Of a DNA stretch of 64,000 nucleotides, positions 6,597-55,000 are shown piece by piece. Below the pieces are notes generated by a model. The model was not told the DNA's origin. It searched no databases and saw only the letters and a list, made by a program, of their open reading frames with translations. A program made the translations under genes and the position numbers. Location: the sequence record MT446392.1; one strand, written 5' to 3'. This DNA is from Escherichia virus TH15. Numbering within the stretch: position 1 is the stretch's first letter; the number at the start of each line of letters is the position of its first letter.

Positions 6597-6821
6597 ATGT
6601 CTGATATTAATGAATTAGAAAAAGCAGCTCTTGAACTGGCTGCGCTGTATAAGAAAGTTAAAGATATGGCTTCTGCTCAAGATTTCGGTATTGAGCTCGA
6701 TGATTATGATGGCGAAGTTCGTCTTGAAGACTGGTTGAACAGCTCTTGTTATGGTGAAGAAGCTGGTCGAACCTTCGTTGCTCACCCGGATGGTAAAATC
6801 TGGTACCCGAGCAGCTGCTAA
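6597..6821 (+). CDS. small protein, WxSSC-tail family member 5
   Basis: 74 aa; ends KIWYPSSC; TAAGGAA junction. Confidence 0.55.
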   Translation: MSDINELEKAALELAALYKKVKDMASAQDFGIELDDYDGEVRLEDWLNSSCYGEEAGRTFVAHPDGKIWYPSSC

Positions 6822-6865
6822 AATTATCACAAGGATGTGATAGGAGGACTTATGCACAAGATTTA

Positions 6866-6895
6866 GTATACAAGTCTAAAGAAACATAGTATCAT
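6866..6895 (+). promoter_or_regulatory. T4-type early promoter
   Basis: -35 GTATACA, 17-nt spacer, -10 TATCAT. Confidence 0.5.
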
Positions 6896-6923
6896 TATCT
6901 CGTCAACTAATGAGGAAATCAAT

Positions 6924-7154
6924 ATGTGGTATTACGCCCCAATGGCTGATGAGCCTGTGAAAATTAGTCGCGCTAAGTTTACAAAGATTTACGGCCTCGT
7001 TTATAAGAAGTCTGATTACGGTGTTCGTTTTGAAGATGCACACTGTATCAACGACCCTTATAATGAAGACCTCTATGGCAAATTGGTTCCTATCGTTAAG
7101 GGGTCCGCCTCTGAGATGATAGATGAATCTAATATCTCTGCTGCTGAAATTTAA
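6924..7154 (+). CDS. hypothetical protein
   Basis: 76-aa ORF after TGAGGAAA SD. Confidence 0.5.
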   Translation: MWYYAPMADEPVKISRAKFTKIYGLVYKKSDYGVRFEDAHCINDPYNEDLYGKLVPIVKGSASEMIDESNISAAEI

Positions 7155-13748: not shown

Positions 13749-14008
13749 TTGAAGATATCAAAGGTTACAAGCCACATACCGACGATAAAATCGGTAAAGT
13801 GAACGCTATTAAAGATGCAGAAGTTCGTCTTGGATTGATGTTTGATGCTCTGATTGAAGAAGCATATATCTTGAAAGAAAATGAAACAGAGCAACAAACC
13901 AAAGAAGATATGGATGCAGTGCAGGCTCTTAAGTATGCTAAGCAACATCTAAAAGAAGCCAGCATGTGGGCATGTCGTGCAGTATTTCGACCCGAGGAAA
14001 AATACTAA
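13745..14008 (+). CDS. hypothetical protein
   Basis: 87-aa ORF, ATGA overlap. Confidence 0.5.
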
Positions 14009-14313
14009 TGGCGCAGATTAATTCTGGTTTTGGTTATGAGTTATCAACCGCTTCTCATCGCCGCATAAATGATTCCAATCCGTTTGGATTCACATCGAAA
14101 CAGCCAAAAATTCAAAGTCTAGACGATTTCCAGGAAGTTATTCGTAAGGCCTTTCAGGACTACGGGAACTATCTTAAAGAAGATTCAAACGACTGTCTTG
14201 AAGAAGATGAAATTGCTTACTACGAGCAACGCCTTGAACAGCTTAAGAATTTGCACGCTGTTCGTGCCGAAGTCTCACAATCATTAAATAAGCTAATTCG
14301 TTTTAAAGAATAG
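14008..14313 (+). CDS. hypothetical protein
   Basis: ATG 14008 after GAGGAAAAA SD. Confidence 0.5.
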
Positions 14314-22208: not shown

Positions 22209-22733
22209 ATGGAAGCCAAATCAATCTTTAATCTGATTAATTACAATAATGGTAATTTTAAATCAGAAGCACAAAGCAAGTTCTTTAATGATGTTGCTTG
22301 TGCAGGTGAGATTACAGTATCAGGCGGTCAAACTTATAAAAACGCCTGGAACTGGATTGTAAATGTTGATTCAGTTGGTATTGTTGATGTGTATAAAAAC
22401 ACCAACAAAAACCGCTCTTTGTTCTGGTCAAGAGAGACTAATGCTGAGTATCAGGCAACAAGAGCAAAGAAAAATATGCCTACTGAATCTGATGTACAGA
22501 ACATCAAATCAGATATCCAATATTATGATGGTCTGATTGCTGAACAACAAGCAGTGCTTGATAAGTTCAATGAAATCAAAGCATGTAAAGAGATTCCTGA
22601 ATTCATGAGGGAATCAGTTAATGAACAATACAATCTCACTTCAGAGCGTATTGAAACCTATACCAAACAAAGAGCAGAGCGCCAGGTACTCCTTCAGAAG
22701 TTTGAAGAGCGTTTAAAGACGGTTCTCGCATAA
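22209..22733 (+). CDS. hypothetical protein
   Basis: 174-aa ORF. Confidence 0.6.
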   Translation: MEAKSIFNLINYNNGNFKSEAQSKFFNDVACAGEITVSGGQTYKNAWNWIVNVDSVGIVDVYKNTNKNRSLFWSRETNAEYQATRAKKNMPTESDVQNIKSDIQYYDGLIAEQQAVLDKFNEIKACKEIPEFMRESVNEQYNLTSERIETYTKQRAERQVLLQKFEERLKTVLA

Positions 22734-22759
22734 ACGCTTTATACCAAGGATGGTATAAT
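22733..22759 (+). promoter_or_regulatory. possible middle-type promoter (MotA-box-like)
   Basis: AACGCTTTA, 12-nt spacer, -10 TATAAT. Confidence 0.4.
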
Positions 22760-22796
22760 GGTTCTGACCTTTGATTAATCTATTGAGGAAAATAAT

Positions 22797-23210
22797 ATGT
22801 CACAAGCAATTAATGAAATTCGTTCTGAAGTTAAAAAAGCAGTTAAATTTAACAGTATTCCGAGCACTAAAGATGTGGTTTTAAATGTTTTATATATGAT
22901 GTGGAATAAGTTCAATGTTTGTACTAATTCTGCTGAATTCACTAAAATCTTTAATAAAACAACGGGCTTGCTTACATTAGAAGACCGAGTCATGAAATCT
23001 CTTCATCGTTCAGGTATGTTGTCTCGTGCTAATGCCAAAATTTTACTTAAAAATTATAATAAAGGTTATGACCTTTATGGTCGTGCGATTAGCACCATGA
23101 CATTTGATGAAGTGGTCAAAGACCTTCATACTAACCAACGCCGTTTATTGGCATTAGGTGCTCGTTTAGCAAGCGGTCAAGATAAACAAATGACCTTTAA
23201 AAACCAATAA
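22797..23210 (+). CDS. hypothetical protein
   Basis: 137-aa ORF after TGAGGAAAA. Confidence 0.6.
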   Translation: MSQAINEIRSEVKKAVKFNSIPSTKDVVLNVLYMMWNKFNVCTNSAEFTKIFNKTTGLLTLEDRVMKSLHRSGMLSRANAKILLKNYNKGYDLYGRAISTMTFDEVVKDLHTNQRRLLALGARLASGQDKQMTFKNQ

Positions 23211-23319
23211 TTCTTTAGATTATAAACTATTTAATGTTATTAAAGGTCAAAATGAAGGCGAATACAGTATTTCTTCTTTTAGTGGATGTCAATACGAAAA
23301 CTGGAAATTCCATCTTCGT

Positions 23320-23646
23320 TTGGCTTTGTCTGAACTCGAACATCATGGGGTTCTTACCTTCTATGATGTTAAAACTGGAGGCGTCCAGCGTATTAAACTA
23401 TGTCAAATTAAAGACCGAGTTGTAGTTGATAGTCCTTCAGAACAAGCTCCTAAAATGGAACCTGTTCCAGTGCGAAGCAATGAAAAATATTCAGAGCAAA
23501 TTGAGCTTTTCACTAAACAGATTGAAGAGCTTAACATCACCATCCAGCAGCAAGATGATGAAATTTTCCGTCTGTCAGGACTGAATAATGCAGCGAAAGC
23601 CGAACGTCAGAAACTGATGAACGTTATTAAATTGCTTAAGGATTAA
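23320..23646 (+). CDS. hypothetical coiled-coil protein, start unresolved
   Basis: Frame open from 23236 with no in-frame ATG; track start is TTG; nearby ATG 23252 is in another frame. Confidence 0.35.
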   Translation: MALSELEHHGVLTFYDVKTGGVQRIKLCQIKDRVVVDSPSEQAPKMEPVPVRSNEKYSEQIELFTKQIEELNITIQQQDDEIFRLSGLNNAAKAERQKLMNVIKLLKD

Positions 23647-23648
23647 TT

Positions 23649-23729
23649 ATGGAATGGCTTGCTGTTCTTGGTTATGTATTCGTTGCCACAGGTATTCTGT
23701 GGCTGATATTCTCAAATATTGTAGGTTAA
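23649..23729 (+). CDS. hydrophobic micro-protein (26 aa)
   Basis: Single TM helix; TAATATG junction to next gene. Confidence 0.3.
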   Translation: MEWLAVLGYVFVATGILWLIFSNIVG

Positions 23730-23730
23730 T

Positions 23731-23946
23731 ATGGAAATTGTAGGTTTTATTCTCCTTTACTTTATGTTAGGATTCATGACGACCATTATCATTCATAAAT
23801 CGGGTGATTGGAATCCAATCGAAATTGAATCAAGTTATGATGCAGTATTCATTACACTAGTATGGCCTCTGCTTTGGTTTGCTTTGGCAATTATGATGGT
23901 GTTTTGGCCTATTGCTAAATTCTATGAAAAATTATTTGGACTATGA
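23731..23946 (+). CDS. hypothetical membrane protein
   Basis: 71 aa, two hydrophobic helices. Confidence 0.5.
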   Translation: MEIVGFILLYFMLGFMTTIIIHKSGDWNPIEIESSYDAVFITLVWPLLWFALAIMMVFWPIAKFYEKLFGL

Positions 23947-23947
23947 T

Positions 23948-24847
23948 ATGAAAATTAAAACTCGCGCTGAATATGCTAGTAGTTATGAACCACATGACGG
24001 TCGTGTGACTCGTCTTATCGCAATGAATTCTTTGGTTAACTTTGGCAAAATCAAATCAGGTTCTGCTACCCAGGGGTATGGTCAACGTATTGTAAGAATT
24101 AACTCTCTGAATGATTACTGCCGCCGCCCAGCGTTTTTGTTTGGTGCCACGGTTCGTAAGAGTATCAAGGAAATTCTGGCCGGCGGATTTCGTATTCGCA
24201 AAGCTCCGGTTAACATCAAGAACTATAATTTTAACTCTGACAACTTGATTATCAATATCAAGAATGATGGTGTACAGATTAAGTTCAAACCAACTACCAA
24301 GGGCGATGTTGCTCTTTGTCATAACTTTAAAGAGGTTATGGGTATTGCGCTGTTTTATATGCGCCATGCTGTTGAATCGTACACGTTTGATGAAGATACA
24401 AATTATATCCACCAAACGGAAAAATTCCTCAAAACTATAGTCATTGATATTAAATTAACTAAAGAATATCTTTTGTCTTATGCTCCTTATCAAGAGAAAA
24501 ATGAACCAGAAGAGGAAAAGGAACCAGAAATGGAACGTATCCCTACCGCATCATATGGCCCAGCATTTGCAGGTCAGTTTAAATCTTACGACCAGACTAA
24601 AATTTCACCACTGGAAGTTAAAAATATGTATCAATGGAAAATCCAGCCAAACAGCTCTCTTGAAATCTTTAACCCACCAATGAAGCCTATTGAGAGCTAT
24701 CATGCTGATGCTATCCGGGAATCAGTTAACCGCTTAAATGGTCTGATTGAAGATGAGAAAAAGGGTATCCAGGATGTTCTGAATCGCATCAAGAATATGG
24801 AAAAACAACGCAATAAATTGCAAGCGGCAATCAAAGCATTAAAATAA
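23948..24847 (+). CDS. hypothetical protein
   Basis: ATG 23948 just after upstream stop; 299 aa. Confidence 0.65.
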   Translation: MKIKTRAEYASSYEPHDGRVTRLIAMNSLVNFGKIKSGSATQGYGQRIVRINSLNDYCRRPAFLFGATVRKSIKEILAGGFRIRKAPVNIKNYNFNSDNLIINIKNDGVQIKFKPTTKGDVALCHNFKEVMGIALFYMRHAVESYTFDEDTNYIHQTEKFLKTIVIDIKLTKEYLLSYAPYQEKNEPEEEKEPEMERIPTASYGPAFAGQFKSYDQTKISPLEVKNMYQWKIQPNSSLEIFNPPMKPIESYHADAIRESVNRLNGLIEDEKKGIQDVLNRIKNMEKQRNKLQAAIKALK

Positions 24848-24848
24848 T

Positions 24849-24878
24849 GTTTACTTCCAAGGATGGAGGGAGTATAAT
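24849..24878 (+). promoter_or_regulatory. T4-type early promoter
   Basis: -35 GTTTACT, 17-nt spacer, -10 TATAAT. Confidence 0.6.
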
Positions 24879-24905
24879 GAATTCCTACTTTATGAGGAGA
24901 ACACT

Positions 24906-25898
24906 ATGACACGTAATGAATATATCCAGGCCTTTAACTCAACTATCGACACAAAAGTAAAACCATTAATAGGTGAATCGGCTATCCTTTTAATTATCAA
25001 TTTCTGGTTAAATCAGATTGACTCGACAATTGTTGCATCTGGACGCTTCAAGAAAGACATTGCAACTATTGCGAGTCGTGCTGGTAACGATGATATCAAG
25101 AAAACTTTTAAAAGTTCCCGAGTCCTGGCATACCTGGTTAATAAAGACCTTCTTAACAAGTTTGGTGTTGAATCCAGACGTGGTAAAGGTACAATTGGAT
25201 ATCATTGGTTTGGCGATGTTGAAAAATACTATCTTGATAAACAAGGCTATACTGCTTCTGAATTCGCAAATTGTTGGGCTCGTGAATTCAGAGATAACAA
25301 AATGTCTATCATCAAATCAGCGACAAAATTGATGGGTGGTGATTTTCGCACTATCTCCCATTTGGCTGAGCACATGATAAATGTTAAAGATTCTGGTGAA
25401 AACCAGGTAATTATTGCAGTTAAGTATGAATTCTTTACGCCAGTGGCTACTCCAGAAAATGTCAAAAAGTACCTTGATGTTGCCTGTACGCTTACTCATC
25501 AGCTGCAGTGTGCACTTAATTATATGCGCACTGTTGAAAAAATTAAAGTAGACCCTATCACCAGTGCTCATGGTTGGAAAGGTTGGAAAATTGTGGTGAC
25601 ATTACGCGAAGTTAAATGTGCAAAGCAACCAACTGTTGCAGAAATCTATAAAAAGAAAAGTGAGGAAATTATGAATGCTCCGCATGAAGTTACTACCCTT
25701 GAAGACCTGATTGATAACCTGAATAATGAGCCAGTGAAACAAAAAGCGCCTGAAATTGTTGCCCTGGAAACAGCGTATAATGAAGCTCTTGCTGTTAATA
25801 AAAAGGCAACTGAAGACTATACAAAAGCCAAGCGACTTTGGGAAGAATCAACCAATCGTCTGGATAAACTGGAACAGGCTCTGGAGCTGTTGAAATGA
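24906..25898 (+). CDS. hypothetical protein
   Basis: 330-aa ORF after TGAGGAGAA. Confidence 0.65.
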   Translation: MTRNEYIQAFNSTIDTKVKPLIGESAILLIINFWLNQIDSTIVASGRFKKDIATIASRAGNDDIKKTFKSSRVLAYLVNKDLLNKFGVESRRGKGTIGYHWFGDVEKYYLDKQGYTASEFANCWAREFRDNKMSIIKSATKLMGGDFRTISHLAEHMINVKDSGENQVIIAVKYEFFTPVATPENVKKYLDVACTLTHQLQCALNYMRTVEKIKVDPITSAHGWKGWKIVVTLREVKCAKQPTVAEIYKKKSEEIMNAPHEVTTLEDLIDNLNNEPVKQKAPEIVALETAYNEALAVNKKATEDYTKAKRLWEESTNRLDKLEQALELLK

Positions 25899-30058: not shown

Positions 30059-30241
30059 ATGGTTATTCAAGATAAAGAAATTAAAGTTGACCGGTATTAT
30101 TCTGTAAATGGCTATCCTGTACAGGTAACCAAAGTGACTGACCAAGATGTATGGTATCGTCCTTTGAAATGGCCTGATGCTCCGTTGATGGTGTGTGACC
30201 GTAGCTTGTTCAATACAGTTGCAAAAGGACCTAAATTATGA
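30059..30241 (+). CDS. hypothetical protein
   Basis: 60-aa ORF after TGAGGAAAA. Confidence 0.45.
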   Translation: MVIQDKEIKVDRYYSVNGYPVQVTKVTDQDVWYRPLKWPDAPLMVCDRSLFNTVAKGPKL

Positions 30242-30486
30242 GCCTTAAATTGCACGCAATGAAAAATATCATTACCCTTAATCTGGATGATGAGCGTCTG
30301 ATTTTTCTCACCATCACTGATAAGAATATTGAAATTGCAAATGGTCCTAAGACTTATTGTTGCCCAGTAAAAAATTGGAAGCATGTAACCTTTTTGTCCC
30401 TGGGCGAACGTCTGGAAGACCTTAAGTTGGATTTGGGTATCAAAGATATCCAGTATATCAAAAATCTTATTGACGCTAACTGCTGA
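30238..30486 (+). CDS. hypothetical protein
   Basis: 82-aa ORF, ATGA overlap. Confidence 0.5.
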   Translation: MSLKLHAMKNIITLNLDDERLIFLTITDKNIEIANGPKTYCCPVKNWKHVTFLSLGERLEDLKLDLGIKDIQYIKNLIDANC

Positions 30487-30493
30487 GGTAACT

Positions 30494-54458: not shown

Positions 54459-54656
54459 ATGTTAAACCGTTGGATTAAACCAAATAAAACTTTAGATGAA
54501 GTTATTGCCCATGATGTCCATTTTAAGTATGGCCTGGGTGTGTTTGATGAGGTTATCGTACATTCATTCATGATGCACGATGATGATTCTTTAGAATTCA
54601 ATATTGAAATCCGTTGTGATGATGGTAAAGTTGAATTTAAACGAGGTTTCCTATGA
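54459..54656 (+). CDS. hypothetical protein
   Basis: 65-aa ORF after AGAGGAGAA. Confidence 0.5.
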   Translation: MLNRWIKPNKTLDEVIAHDVHFKYGLGVFDEVIVHSFMMHDDDSLEFNIEIRCDDGKVEFKRGFL

Positions 54657-55000
54657 TTAGTTGGCTCAAGAATTTATTCAAGACTAAACCAGGTGAAGGT
54701 GTGGTTCCTATTGCGCCATCGGATGTTAAACTAAGAGAATATGTTTACATGGGTGATGGTATGATGGAAGAAGTTATTCGTCAACCAGAAAAAGCTGGTA
54801 ATGTTGGCACAGGTGCATTGCCGTTGAATTCTAAAAAGTTAAAAGAACATTTGGATGCTCGCCGTACAAGTCATATCGGTACTACTTCGATTGTGGTGAC
54901 TGCGGCTGCGGTTAGTTCGTGGACAGGTGATTCATCTTATTCATCTTATTCATCATATGATTCAGGAAGCTGCGATTCGTCTTCCAGCTCGTGTGATTAA
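54653..55000 (+). CDS. hypothetical protein with Ser/Tyr-rich C-terminal tail
   Basis: 115 aa ending SSYSSYSSYDSGSCDSSSSSCD. Confidence 0.5.
   Translation: MISWLKNLFKTKPGEGVVPIAPSDVKLREYVYMGDGMMEEVIRQPEKAGNVGTGALPLNSKKLKEHLDARRTSHIGTTSIVVTAAAVSSWTGDSSYSSYSSYDSGSCDSSSSSCD

What the first reader, a model, noticed from the sequence alone, without database searches (positions are those of the whole stretch)
23236..23646. Coiled-coil protein gene with no in-frame ATG: possible frameshift, non-canonical start or pseudogene
The frame encoding a protein-like sequence is open from 23236 to 23646 but has no ATG until well inside; the track start at 23320 is TTG without a good Shine-Dalgarno. The only nearby ATG with a plausible context (23252) is in the +1 frame and gives a hydrophobic low-complexity translation that ends at 23425.
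Basis: seen in the sequence. Interest (0 to 1): 0.4.

Follow-up and report, generated by a model that had tools for sequence, protein, structure and literature searches.

The report
Frameshifted phage gene nrdC.6

Summary
The frame ending at 23646 has no ATG before 23455, the TTG at 23320 has no Shine-Dalgarno, and the ATG at 23252 is out of frame. However, the frame is open from 23194, not 23236, and it overlaps the end of the upstream ORF (22797-23210).

The window comes from a T4-like coliphage (Gaprivervirus, about 95% identical to VR25 and VR7). All 11 relatives aligned, and all 60 best phage records, carry one uninterrupted 846-852 nt gene, nrdC.6 (about 282 aa), at this position. The window differs by a single extra A in the run at 23199-23203 (A5 instead of A4). 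Removing one A restores a 282-aa protein that matches phrog_2257 end to end (E=1e-122).

As the sequence stands, it encodes a 137-aa N-terminal fragment. The C-terminal α/β domain and coiled coil are left without a start.

There is no decay downstream: 0 window-unique substitutions in 443 nt. The change is therefore either a very recent loss-of-function mutation in a dispensable accessory gene (about 0.6) or a homopolymer sequencing error (about 0.35). Programmed recoding and an independent TTG-started gene are both very unlikely. Interest is low.

The parts
22735..22759 (+). Putative promoter of nrdC.6: CGCTTTA (22735-22741), a 12-nt spacer, then TATAAT (22754-22759). It resembles a T4 middle promoter (MotA box plus -10).
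   Evidence: Read from the sequence. The comparison with the T4 middle-promoter consensus is from memory and was not tested. The generic sigma-70 scan found no excess of sites.
22785..22799 (+). Shine-Dalgarno GAGGA (22785-22789) and the true nrdC.6 start codon ATG (22797-22799).
   Evidence: This is the same start as the annotated nrdC.6 CDS in VR25, VR7, VR20, VR26, RZ, JS98, DK-13, MN01, UPEC01 and NC-G.
22797..23210 (+). 5' part of nrdC.6 as it reads in the window: 137 codons, then a premature TAA (23208-23210). Residues 1-135 are native; the last two (N, Q) are out-of-frame.
   Evidence: This part is 97-99% identical to the N-half of VR25, VR7 and VR26. It corresponds to the confidently predicted helical domain, residues 1-124.
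23199..23203 (+). The lesion: a run of five A (TTT AAAAA CC) where all relatives have four (TTT AAAA CC). This is a +1-nt insertion at codon 135/136.
   Evidence: It is the only frame-breaking gap column in the MAFFT alignment of the window with 11 relatives. It is also the single 1-nt gap in blastn against the VR25 ORF (o163, position 23203).
23204..23646 (+). 3' part of nrdC.6 (codons 136-282 plus TAA 23644-23646), now in the +1 frame and without its own start. It encodes a small α/β domain, a linker and the C-terminal coiled coil.
   Evidence: dN/dS is 0.05-0.25 in this half. There are no window-unique substitutions.
23320..23322 (+). TTG used as a start by ORF and gene callers. In intact orthologs it is an internal Leu codon (invariant L175 in alignment A1), so it is not a real start.
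   Evidence: The 108-aa TTG product exists in the protein collection from one 171,591-bp contig only.
23252..23425 (+). Out-of-frame ATG ORF with an AAAGG upstream. It gives a hydrophobic translation and is incidental.
   Evidence: The ATG is not conserved: RZ and MN01 read AAG there.

Best explanation
The ORF is the C-terminal 147 codons of the T4-type early/middle gene nrdC.6. It has been separated from its own start codon (ATG 22797) by one extra A in the homopolymer at 23199-23203.

Shown:
- The window is a Gaprivervirus-like T4-type phage.
- Every relative has a single gene of about 849 nt between nrdC.8 and nrdC.5.
- The window's only length difference from its close relatives is A5 instead of A4.
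- Deleting one A restores a full-length family member.

Consequence of the sequence as written: translation from ATG 22797 ends at TAA 23208 and gives a 137-aa product. That product is the whole N-terminal helical domain plus part of the invariant DKQMxFKTN linker motif. The α/β domain and the highly conserved coiled coil (PVPVRSNEK...DDEIFRL...LLK) have no SD-led in-frame start and are essentially not made.

Inferred: this is a very recent, real slipped-strand (Streisinger-type) +1 insertion that inactivates or truncates a dispensable accessory gene. The gene belongs to the nrdC.x cluster, which in T4 is deletable and includes at least one anti-defence gene (nrdC.5, which counters Dsr1).
For: Gene identity and lesion:
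- The alignment with 11 relatives shows a single frame-breaking gap, at 23199-23203.
- Annotated relatives all show one nrdC.6 CDS of 846-852 nt in the same synteny, nrdC.8 | nrdC.6 | (small ORFs) | nrdC.5 | nrdC.4.
- The repaired protein hits phrog_2257 at 1-282 against 1-303/303, E=1.1e-122.
- All 104 homolog clusters at E<=0.001 in the 5.8-billion-protein search belong to this family; most are 273-298 aa and none ends near codon 137.
- All 60 best of 741 phage records give one-piece, single-frame tblastn matches.
- Both halves are under purifying selection in relatives, dN/dS 0.09-0.24.

Real mutation rather than error:
- The scan of 173 VR25 ORFs against the whole window found no other conserved gene broken by an uncompensated homopolymer indel. 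The assembly is therefore not generally indel-prone.
- Both split products are listed with sources 'NCBI, Logan', meaning they are also seen in a re-assembly of public reads.
- The T4 segment nrdC.1-6 can be deleted with viable phage (PMC9825161).
- The neighbouring nrdC.5 is a non-essential host-range gene (PMC9391042).
Against: - There are no window-unique substitutions in the 443 nt downstream of the shift, and only one in the whole gene. There is therefore no sign that the 3' half has ever evolved as non-coding. This fits an artefact as well as it fits a very recent mutation.
- The A5 allele was found nowhere else: 0 hits in IMG/VR and in JGI metagenome contigs.
- Homopolymer length is the classic sequencing or assembly error.
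- I could not retrieve the source contig or any read-level data, so the 'Logan' hint could not be checked.
Confidence: 0.6

Rival explanations
1. Sequencing or assembly artefact. The phage really has A4 and an intact 282-aa nrdC.6, and the extra A is a homopolymer miscall in the deposited consensus.
For: - The difference is a single base in a homopolymer.
- There is no downstream decay: 0 unique substitutions in 443 nt.
- The window's C-half against VR25 shows 9 synonymous and 2 non-synonymous changes, dN/dS 0.05.
- The allele is unique among 741 phage records and 104 protein clusters, and absent from IMG/VR and JGI metagenomes.
- The break removes invariant residues (T136, N137) and the most conserved part of the protein, which selection would normally resist.
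- The source contig carries no protein names in the collection, as unannotated submissions do.
Against: - No other conserved ORF in 64 kb shows an uncompensated homopolymer frameshift, which argues against an error-prone platform.
- The same truncated proteins are credited to Logan as well as NCBI.
- The gene is dispensable in T4, so a real loss is tolerable.
Confidence: 0.35
2. Programmed recoding. Full-length NrdC.6 is still made, either by +1 ribosomal slippage of tRNA-Lys on UUU-AAA-AAC (AAA to AAA) two codons before the TAA, or by RNA-polymerase slippage on the A run.
For: - tRNA-Lys can re-pair perfectly in the +1 frame on A5, and the 0-frame stop follows two codons later (read from the sequence).
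- A 10-bp inverted repeat (23191-23200 with 23240-23249) exists.
Against: - The site is not conserved. Every relative has A4 and needs no shift.
- The A-site codon AAC is not a slow codon or a stop, and there is no SD-like stimulator upstream (sequence).
- A5 is far shorter than the runs of 8-9 or more known to give appreciable transcriptional slippage (established knowledge, not tested here).
- The hairpin includes the slip site itself, is not better than shuffles (z=-1.6, 13/200), and is not conserved in JS98.
- There is no Rfam frameshift element.
Confidence: 0.03
3. A split gene in which both halves work: the 3' half is an independent coiled-coil protein started at TTG 23320 (or ATT 23239, or ATG 23455), perhaps by re-initiation after the TAA at 23208.
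For: - Gene callers do emit a 108-aa TTG product.
- The structure model has separate modules joined by low-confidence linkers at residues 128-140 and 207-227, so fragments could fold on their own.
Against: - No SD precedes TTG 23320, ATT 23239 or ATG 23455.
- TTG 23320 would start in the middle of helix 169-182 of the α/β domain.
- The best-placed start nearby (ATG 23252, with AAAGG upstream) is out of frame.
- No relative has a split arrangement.
- The arrangement is too young to have been selected.
Confidence: 0.02

Closest known systems
nrdC.6 of T4-type phages (phrog_2257; precomputed Pfam PF26899 on all homologs), e.g. VR25 AIZ02437.1, VR7 ADR32470.1, JS98 ABX11071.1
   Same: - Same position between nrdC.8 and nrdC.5, and same start codon.
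- 98.6% amino-acid identity to VR25 once one A is removed.
- Same predicted three-module architecture: helical domain, small α/β domain, C-terminal coiled coil.
Streisinger-type slipped-strand frameshift mutations in homopolymer runs (first described in phage T4)
   Same: A single-base gain within a short run of identical bases, producing a premature stop a few codons downstream.
   Different: Here it cannot be distinguished from a homopolymer sequencing error without reads.
Programmed +1 frameshifting (E. coli prfB type)
   Same: A P-site tRNA could re-pair in the +1 frame, and a 0-frame stop lies nearby.
   Different: The stop is not at the shift site, there is no upstream SD stimulator, and the site is absent from all orthologs.

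Membership tests
NrdC.6 family (phrog_2257 / PF26899) | End-to-end sequence match to the family profile | tested here: met
   The repaired 282-aa sequence matches residues 1-282 against profile 1-303/303, E=1.1e-122. There are 104 homolog clusters, the best at E=1e-178.
NrdC.6 family (phrog_2257 / PF26899) | Conserved genomic position (nrdC.8 upstream, nrdC.5 and nrdC.4 downstream, same strand) | tested here: met
   Annotated regions of 10 relatives. Window neighbours hit phrog_2274, DUF7235/phrog_2351 and phrog_1435.
NrdC.6 family (phrog_2257 / PF26899) | One uninterrupted reading frame of about 280 codons | tested here: not met
   The window reads 137 codons to TAA 23208, and the rest is in the +1 frame. 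It is a disrupted copy of the gene, not an intact member.
Programmed +1 ribosomal frameshift site | Shift site and two-frame arrangement conserved among orthologs | tested here: not met
   All 11 aligned relatives have A4 and one frame. The 60 best phage records give one-piece tblastn matches.
Programmed +1 ribosomal frameshift site | Slow or stop codon in the A site, and a stimulatory element (upstream SD-like sequence or downstream structure) | tested here: not met
   The A-site codon is AAC. There is no SD-like sequence in GACCTTTAAAAAC. Local folding is no better than shuffles, z=-1.6. Rfam gives no hit.
Transcriptional slippage site | Long homopolymeric A/T run (about 8-9 or more) | tested here: not met
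   The run is 5 A. The length threshold comes from established knowledge.
Thioredoxin (the label carried by many relatives' NrdC.6 records) | Match to a thioredoxin-fold domain model | tested here: not met

The most novel reading that the evidence does not exclude
The A5 allele is real and not simply null. The phage makes the free 137-aa N-terminal helical domain of NrdC.6 as its main product. A small fraction of full-length protein might also be made by spontaneous +1 slippage of tRNA-Lys on AAA-AAC. This would be a naturally occurring separation-of-function allele of an uncharacterised accessory (possibly anti-defence) gene, and it could be used to dissect what the domains do.
Probability: 0.04. 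Interest if true: 0.35.

Novelty: already known. Interest (0 to 1): 0.08.

Why it matters
It matters mainly for annotation. The two ORFs (22797-23210 and the TTG-started 23320-23646) should be merged and flagged as one frameshifted nrdC.6 (pseudogene or possible sequencing error), not reported as two hypothetical proteins, one with an odd start.

If the mutation is real, this isolate is a natural nrdC.6 truncation mutant. It could be compared with close relatives for host range, because the neighbouring nrdC.5 in T4 is an anti-Dsr1 gene. That is a modest practical use, not a new biological principle.

Tried and rejected
rejected. The alignment shows no gap there among close relatives; JS98 alone has an in-frame 3-nt insertion at 23248.
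- **Finding the A5 allele elsewhere:** exact-pattern scans of IMG/VR and JGI metagenome contigs gave 0 hits. The A4 pattern found only three IMG/VR contigs whose lengths equal those of the VR20, VR25 and VR26 genomes.
- **Retrieving the source or Logan contig to check an independent assembly:** five exact-protein look-ups found nothing on record.
- **Testing for general indel errors in the window:** most flagged ORFs in the VR25 comparison were antisense ORFs, compensated indel pairs in diverged patches, intergenic differences or non-homologous replacements. The 20-nt difference in mrh.2 is a duplication in VR25, not a window defect.
- **Assigning a function to NrdC.6:**
  - Pfam gave nothing and PHROGs gave 'unknown function'.
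  - The HMM search of 1.84 billion representatives gave only 16 hits, mostly fragments.
  - A literature search for 'nrdC.6' found 0 papers.
- **Paralogy of nrdC.4/5/6/8 through their coiled-coil tails:** only weak similarity was found (E 0.02-0.2 in a four-sequence database), so it is not claimed.
- **Promoter/terminator scan:** no more sites than in shuffles.
- **Guess that the window might be phage VR5:** rejected. VR5 is in the database and its NrdC.6 is only 69.6% identical.

Full report
**What is in the sequence**

I read window 22900-24000 and listed the ORFs.
- The frame that ends at TAA 23644-23646 contains no ATG before 23455.
- The longest ATG/GTG/TTG-started ORF in that frame begins at TTG 23320. 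Its upstream 20 nt are actggaaattccatcttcgt, with no Shine-Dalgarno at a usable distance.
- ATG 23252 is preceded by AAAGG, lies in another frame, and that ORF ends at 23425.

One point needs correcting, and it is the key to the interpretation. The frame is open from 23194 (after TGA 23191-23193), not from 23236. It overlaps the last 17 nt of the upstream ORF 22797-23210 (137 aa, ATG start).

**What the region is**

A megablast of 23100-23800 against the phage collection found 49 records, all T4-type coliphages of the genera Gaprivervirus and Dhakavirus. The best was 96% identical. Over 24 kb the window is about 95% identical to VR25, VR7 and VR26.

In every annotated relative I fetched (VR25, RZ, JS98, VR7, VR26, VR20, DK-13, UPEC01, MN01, NC-G), the stretch between nrdC.8 and nrdC.5 holds one CDS of 846-852 nt. 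It is labelled nrdC.6 or 'hypothetical protein'. That CDS spans both window ORFs.

**The lesion**

I aligned window 22797-23646 with the 11 relatives using MAFFT. The window is 850 nt and its close relatives are 849 nt. The only frame-breaking gap column is one extra A in the run at 23199-23203:
- window: ACC TTT AAA AAC CAA TAA
- all relatives: ACC TTT AAA ACC AAT AAT

The same single gap appears in blastn against the VR25 ORF (o163) and in the whole-window comparison. There is no indel at 23252-23260. Removing one A gives a 282-aa protein that is 98.6% identical to VR25 NrdC.6.

**Is nrdC.6 a real, constrained gene?**

- The repaired protein matches phrog_2257 from end to end, E=1.1e-122.
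- The word-indexed search of 5.8 billion proteins returned 104 clusters, all carrying the precomputed Pfam domain PF26899. Most are 273-298 aa (two shorter and one longer exception), and none ends near codon 137.
- A tblastn search of the phage collection found homologs in 741 records. The 60 best were all single-piece, single-frame matches covering 98-100% of the query.
- In the 90% identity clusters that hold the window's two fragments, the listed members are 281-282 aa, apart from the window's own two fragments and two 249-aa ENA entries.
- Nei-Gojobori dN/dS between relatives is 0.09-0.24 in both halves.

The frameshift falls inside the most conserved stretch of the family, NQRRLLALGARLAxGxDKQMxFKTN. 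F134, K135, T136 and N137 are invariant in the 29-sequence alignment A1.

**Consequence for the protein**

An AlphaFold2 model of the VR25 protein, built from alignment A1 (mean pLDDT 78.5, pTM 0.65), shows these modules:
- a confident helical domain (residues 1-124, pLDDT about 90);
- a low-confidence linker (128-140);
- a small β-β-α-β-β domain (145-202);
- a second disordered linker (207-227);
- a C-terminal helical hairpin or coiled coil (232-281).

Read as it stands, the window sequence gives the whole N-terminal domain plus part of the linker (…DKQMTFK-NQ*). The 3' part has no SD-led in-frame start. TTG 23320 is the codon for invariant L175, in the middle of helix 169-182.

The native start looks well equipped. 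GAGGA lies 7 nt before ATG 22797, and upstream there is CGCTTTA, 12 nt, then TATAAT. By my recollection of the consensus this resembles a T4 middle promoter; I did not test it.

**Real mutation or artefact?**

Arguments for an artefact:
- The change is a homopolymer length change.
- There are no window-unique substitutions in the 443 nt downstream, and only one (22841) in the whole gene.
- The window's C-half differs from VR25 by 9 synonymous and 2 non-synonymous changes, so it has been under selection until essentially now.
- The A5 allele was found nowhere else.

Arguments for a real mutation:
- I compared 173 VR25 ORFs (at least 80% covered) with the window and listed all indels in 46.6 kb of alignment at 90% identity or better. 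No other conserved gene is broken by an uncompensated homopolymer indel. The other flagged cases fall into these groups:
  - antisense ORFs;
  - compensated pairs in diverged patches;
  - intergenic differences;
  - a non-homologous gene replacement;
  - one case that is a defect in VR25, not in the window.
- Both split products are listed with sources 'NCBI, Logan'. This suggests that a re-assembly of public reads shows the same frameshift. I could not retrieve any contig to check this.
- The gene is dispensable in T4. The segment nrdC.1-6 is one of seven removable blocks in genome-reduced T4 (PMC9825161). The neighbouring nrdC.5 is a non-essential accessory gene that counters the Dsr1 defence (PMC9391042).

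I put a real, very recent mutation at about 0.6 and an artefact at about 0.35.

**Recoding and split-gene alternatives**

A +1 slip of tRNA-Lys on AAA-AAC is sterically possible, but the evidence is against it:
- The site is absent from all orthologs.
- The A-site codon is ordinary.
- No SD-like stimulator precedes the site.
- The local hairpin contains the slip site itself and folds no better than shuffles (z=-1.6).
- Rfam finds nothing.
- Five A's are too few for appreciable transcriptional slippage (established knowledge).

An independent TTG-started coiled-coil gene is contradicted by the lack of an SD, by the TTG lying inside a helix, and by the absence of this arrangement in any relative.

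**Function of NrdC.6**

The function remains unknown.
- Pfam gave no hit.
- Foldseek against BFVD found only uncharacterised proteins of T4-like phages, down to 13-16% identity in Acinetobacter, Pectobacterium and Enterobacter phages.
- The exhaustive HMM search found 16 hits in all.
- No paper in the library mentions nrdC.6.
- The 'thioredoxin' label on many relatives has no support.

**Verdict**

This is an ordinary finding. It is a known conserved-hypothetical phage gene interrupted by a one-base homopolymer insertion.

Noticed in passing
window 23649-23729 (+): There is a 26-aa hydrophobic mini-ORF (MEWLAVLGYVFVATGILWLIFSNIVG) directly after nrdC.6. It is annotated as an 81-nt CDS in RZ and DK-13, destroyed by a 16-nt deletion in VR25, and absent from VR7 and NC-G. 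It could be a variable small membrane peptide.
   Followed up: partly
window 54459-54660 (+); VR25 record 13894-14115: The mrh.2 homolog is intact in the window. VR25 carries a 20-nt tandem duplication (TTCAATATTGAAATCCGTTG) that frameshifts its own copy. Frameshifted accessory genes therefore do occur in this group of phages.
   Followed up: yes
window 30238-30491 (+): The homolog of VR25_072 (VR7 gp075) has a different C-terminus (last ~7 codons) from VR25. The cause is a 1-nt indel in a diverged patch, not in a homopolymer.
   Followed up: partly
window 22209-25898 (+): Four consecutive genes (nrdC.8, nrdC.6, nrdC.5/DUF7235, nrdC.4) all end in a C-terminal coiled coil. Pairwise sequence similarity of the tails is only weak (E 0.02-0.2). 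T4 NrdC.5 is reported to counter Dsr1 (PMC9391042), so the cluster may be an anti-defence or accessory island with a shared oligomerisation module.
   Followed up: partly
relatives' annotations (H12, H24, H26, H105 and others): NrdC.4, NrdC.5, NrdC.6, NrdC.8 and NrdC.9 homologs are labelled 'thioredoxin' in many GenBank and UniRef records, and the ESCO10 copy is labelled 'inhibitor of host transcription'. Neither label has Pfam or fold support. It looks like name propagation from the nearby nrdC.
   Followed up: partly
window 22735-22799 (+): CGCTTTA, 12 nt, TATAAT, then GAGGA, 7 nt, ATG. This resembles a T4 middle promoter (MotA box) with a strong SD in front of nrdC.6. The consensus was recalled from memory and not tested.
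   Followed up: no
window about 6600-7150 (+): This stretch is not homologous to the corresponding VR25 genes (VR25_135 to VR25_137). It is a gene replacement in a hypervariable segment.
   Followed up: partly
P0106 (Shigella phage Sf25, 378 aa), alignment A1 columns 181-267: The Sf25 NrdC.6 homolog contains an internal duplication of about 80 residues covering the α/β domain and the start of the coiled-coil region.
   Followed up: no
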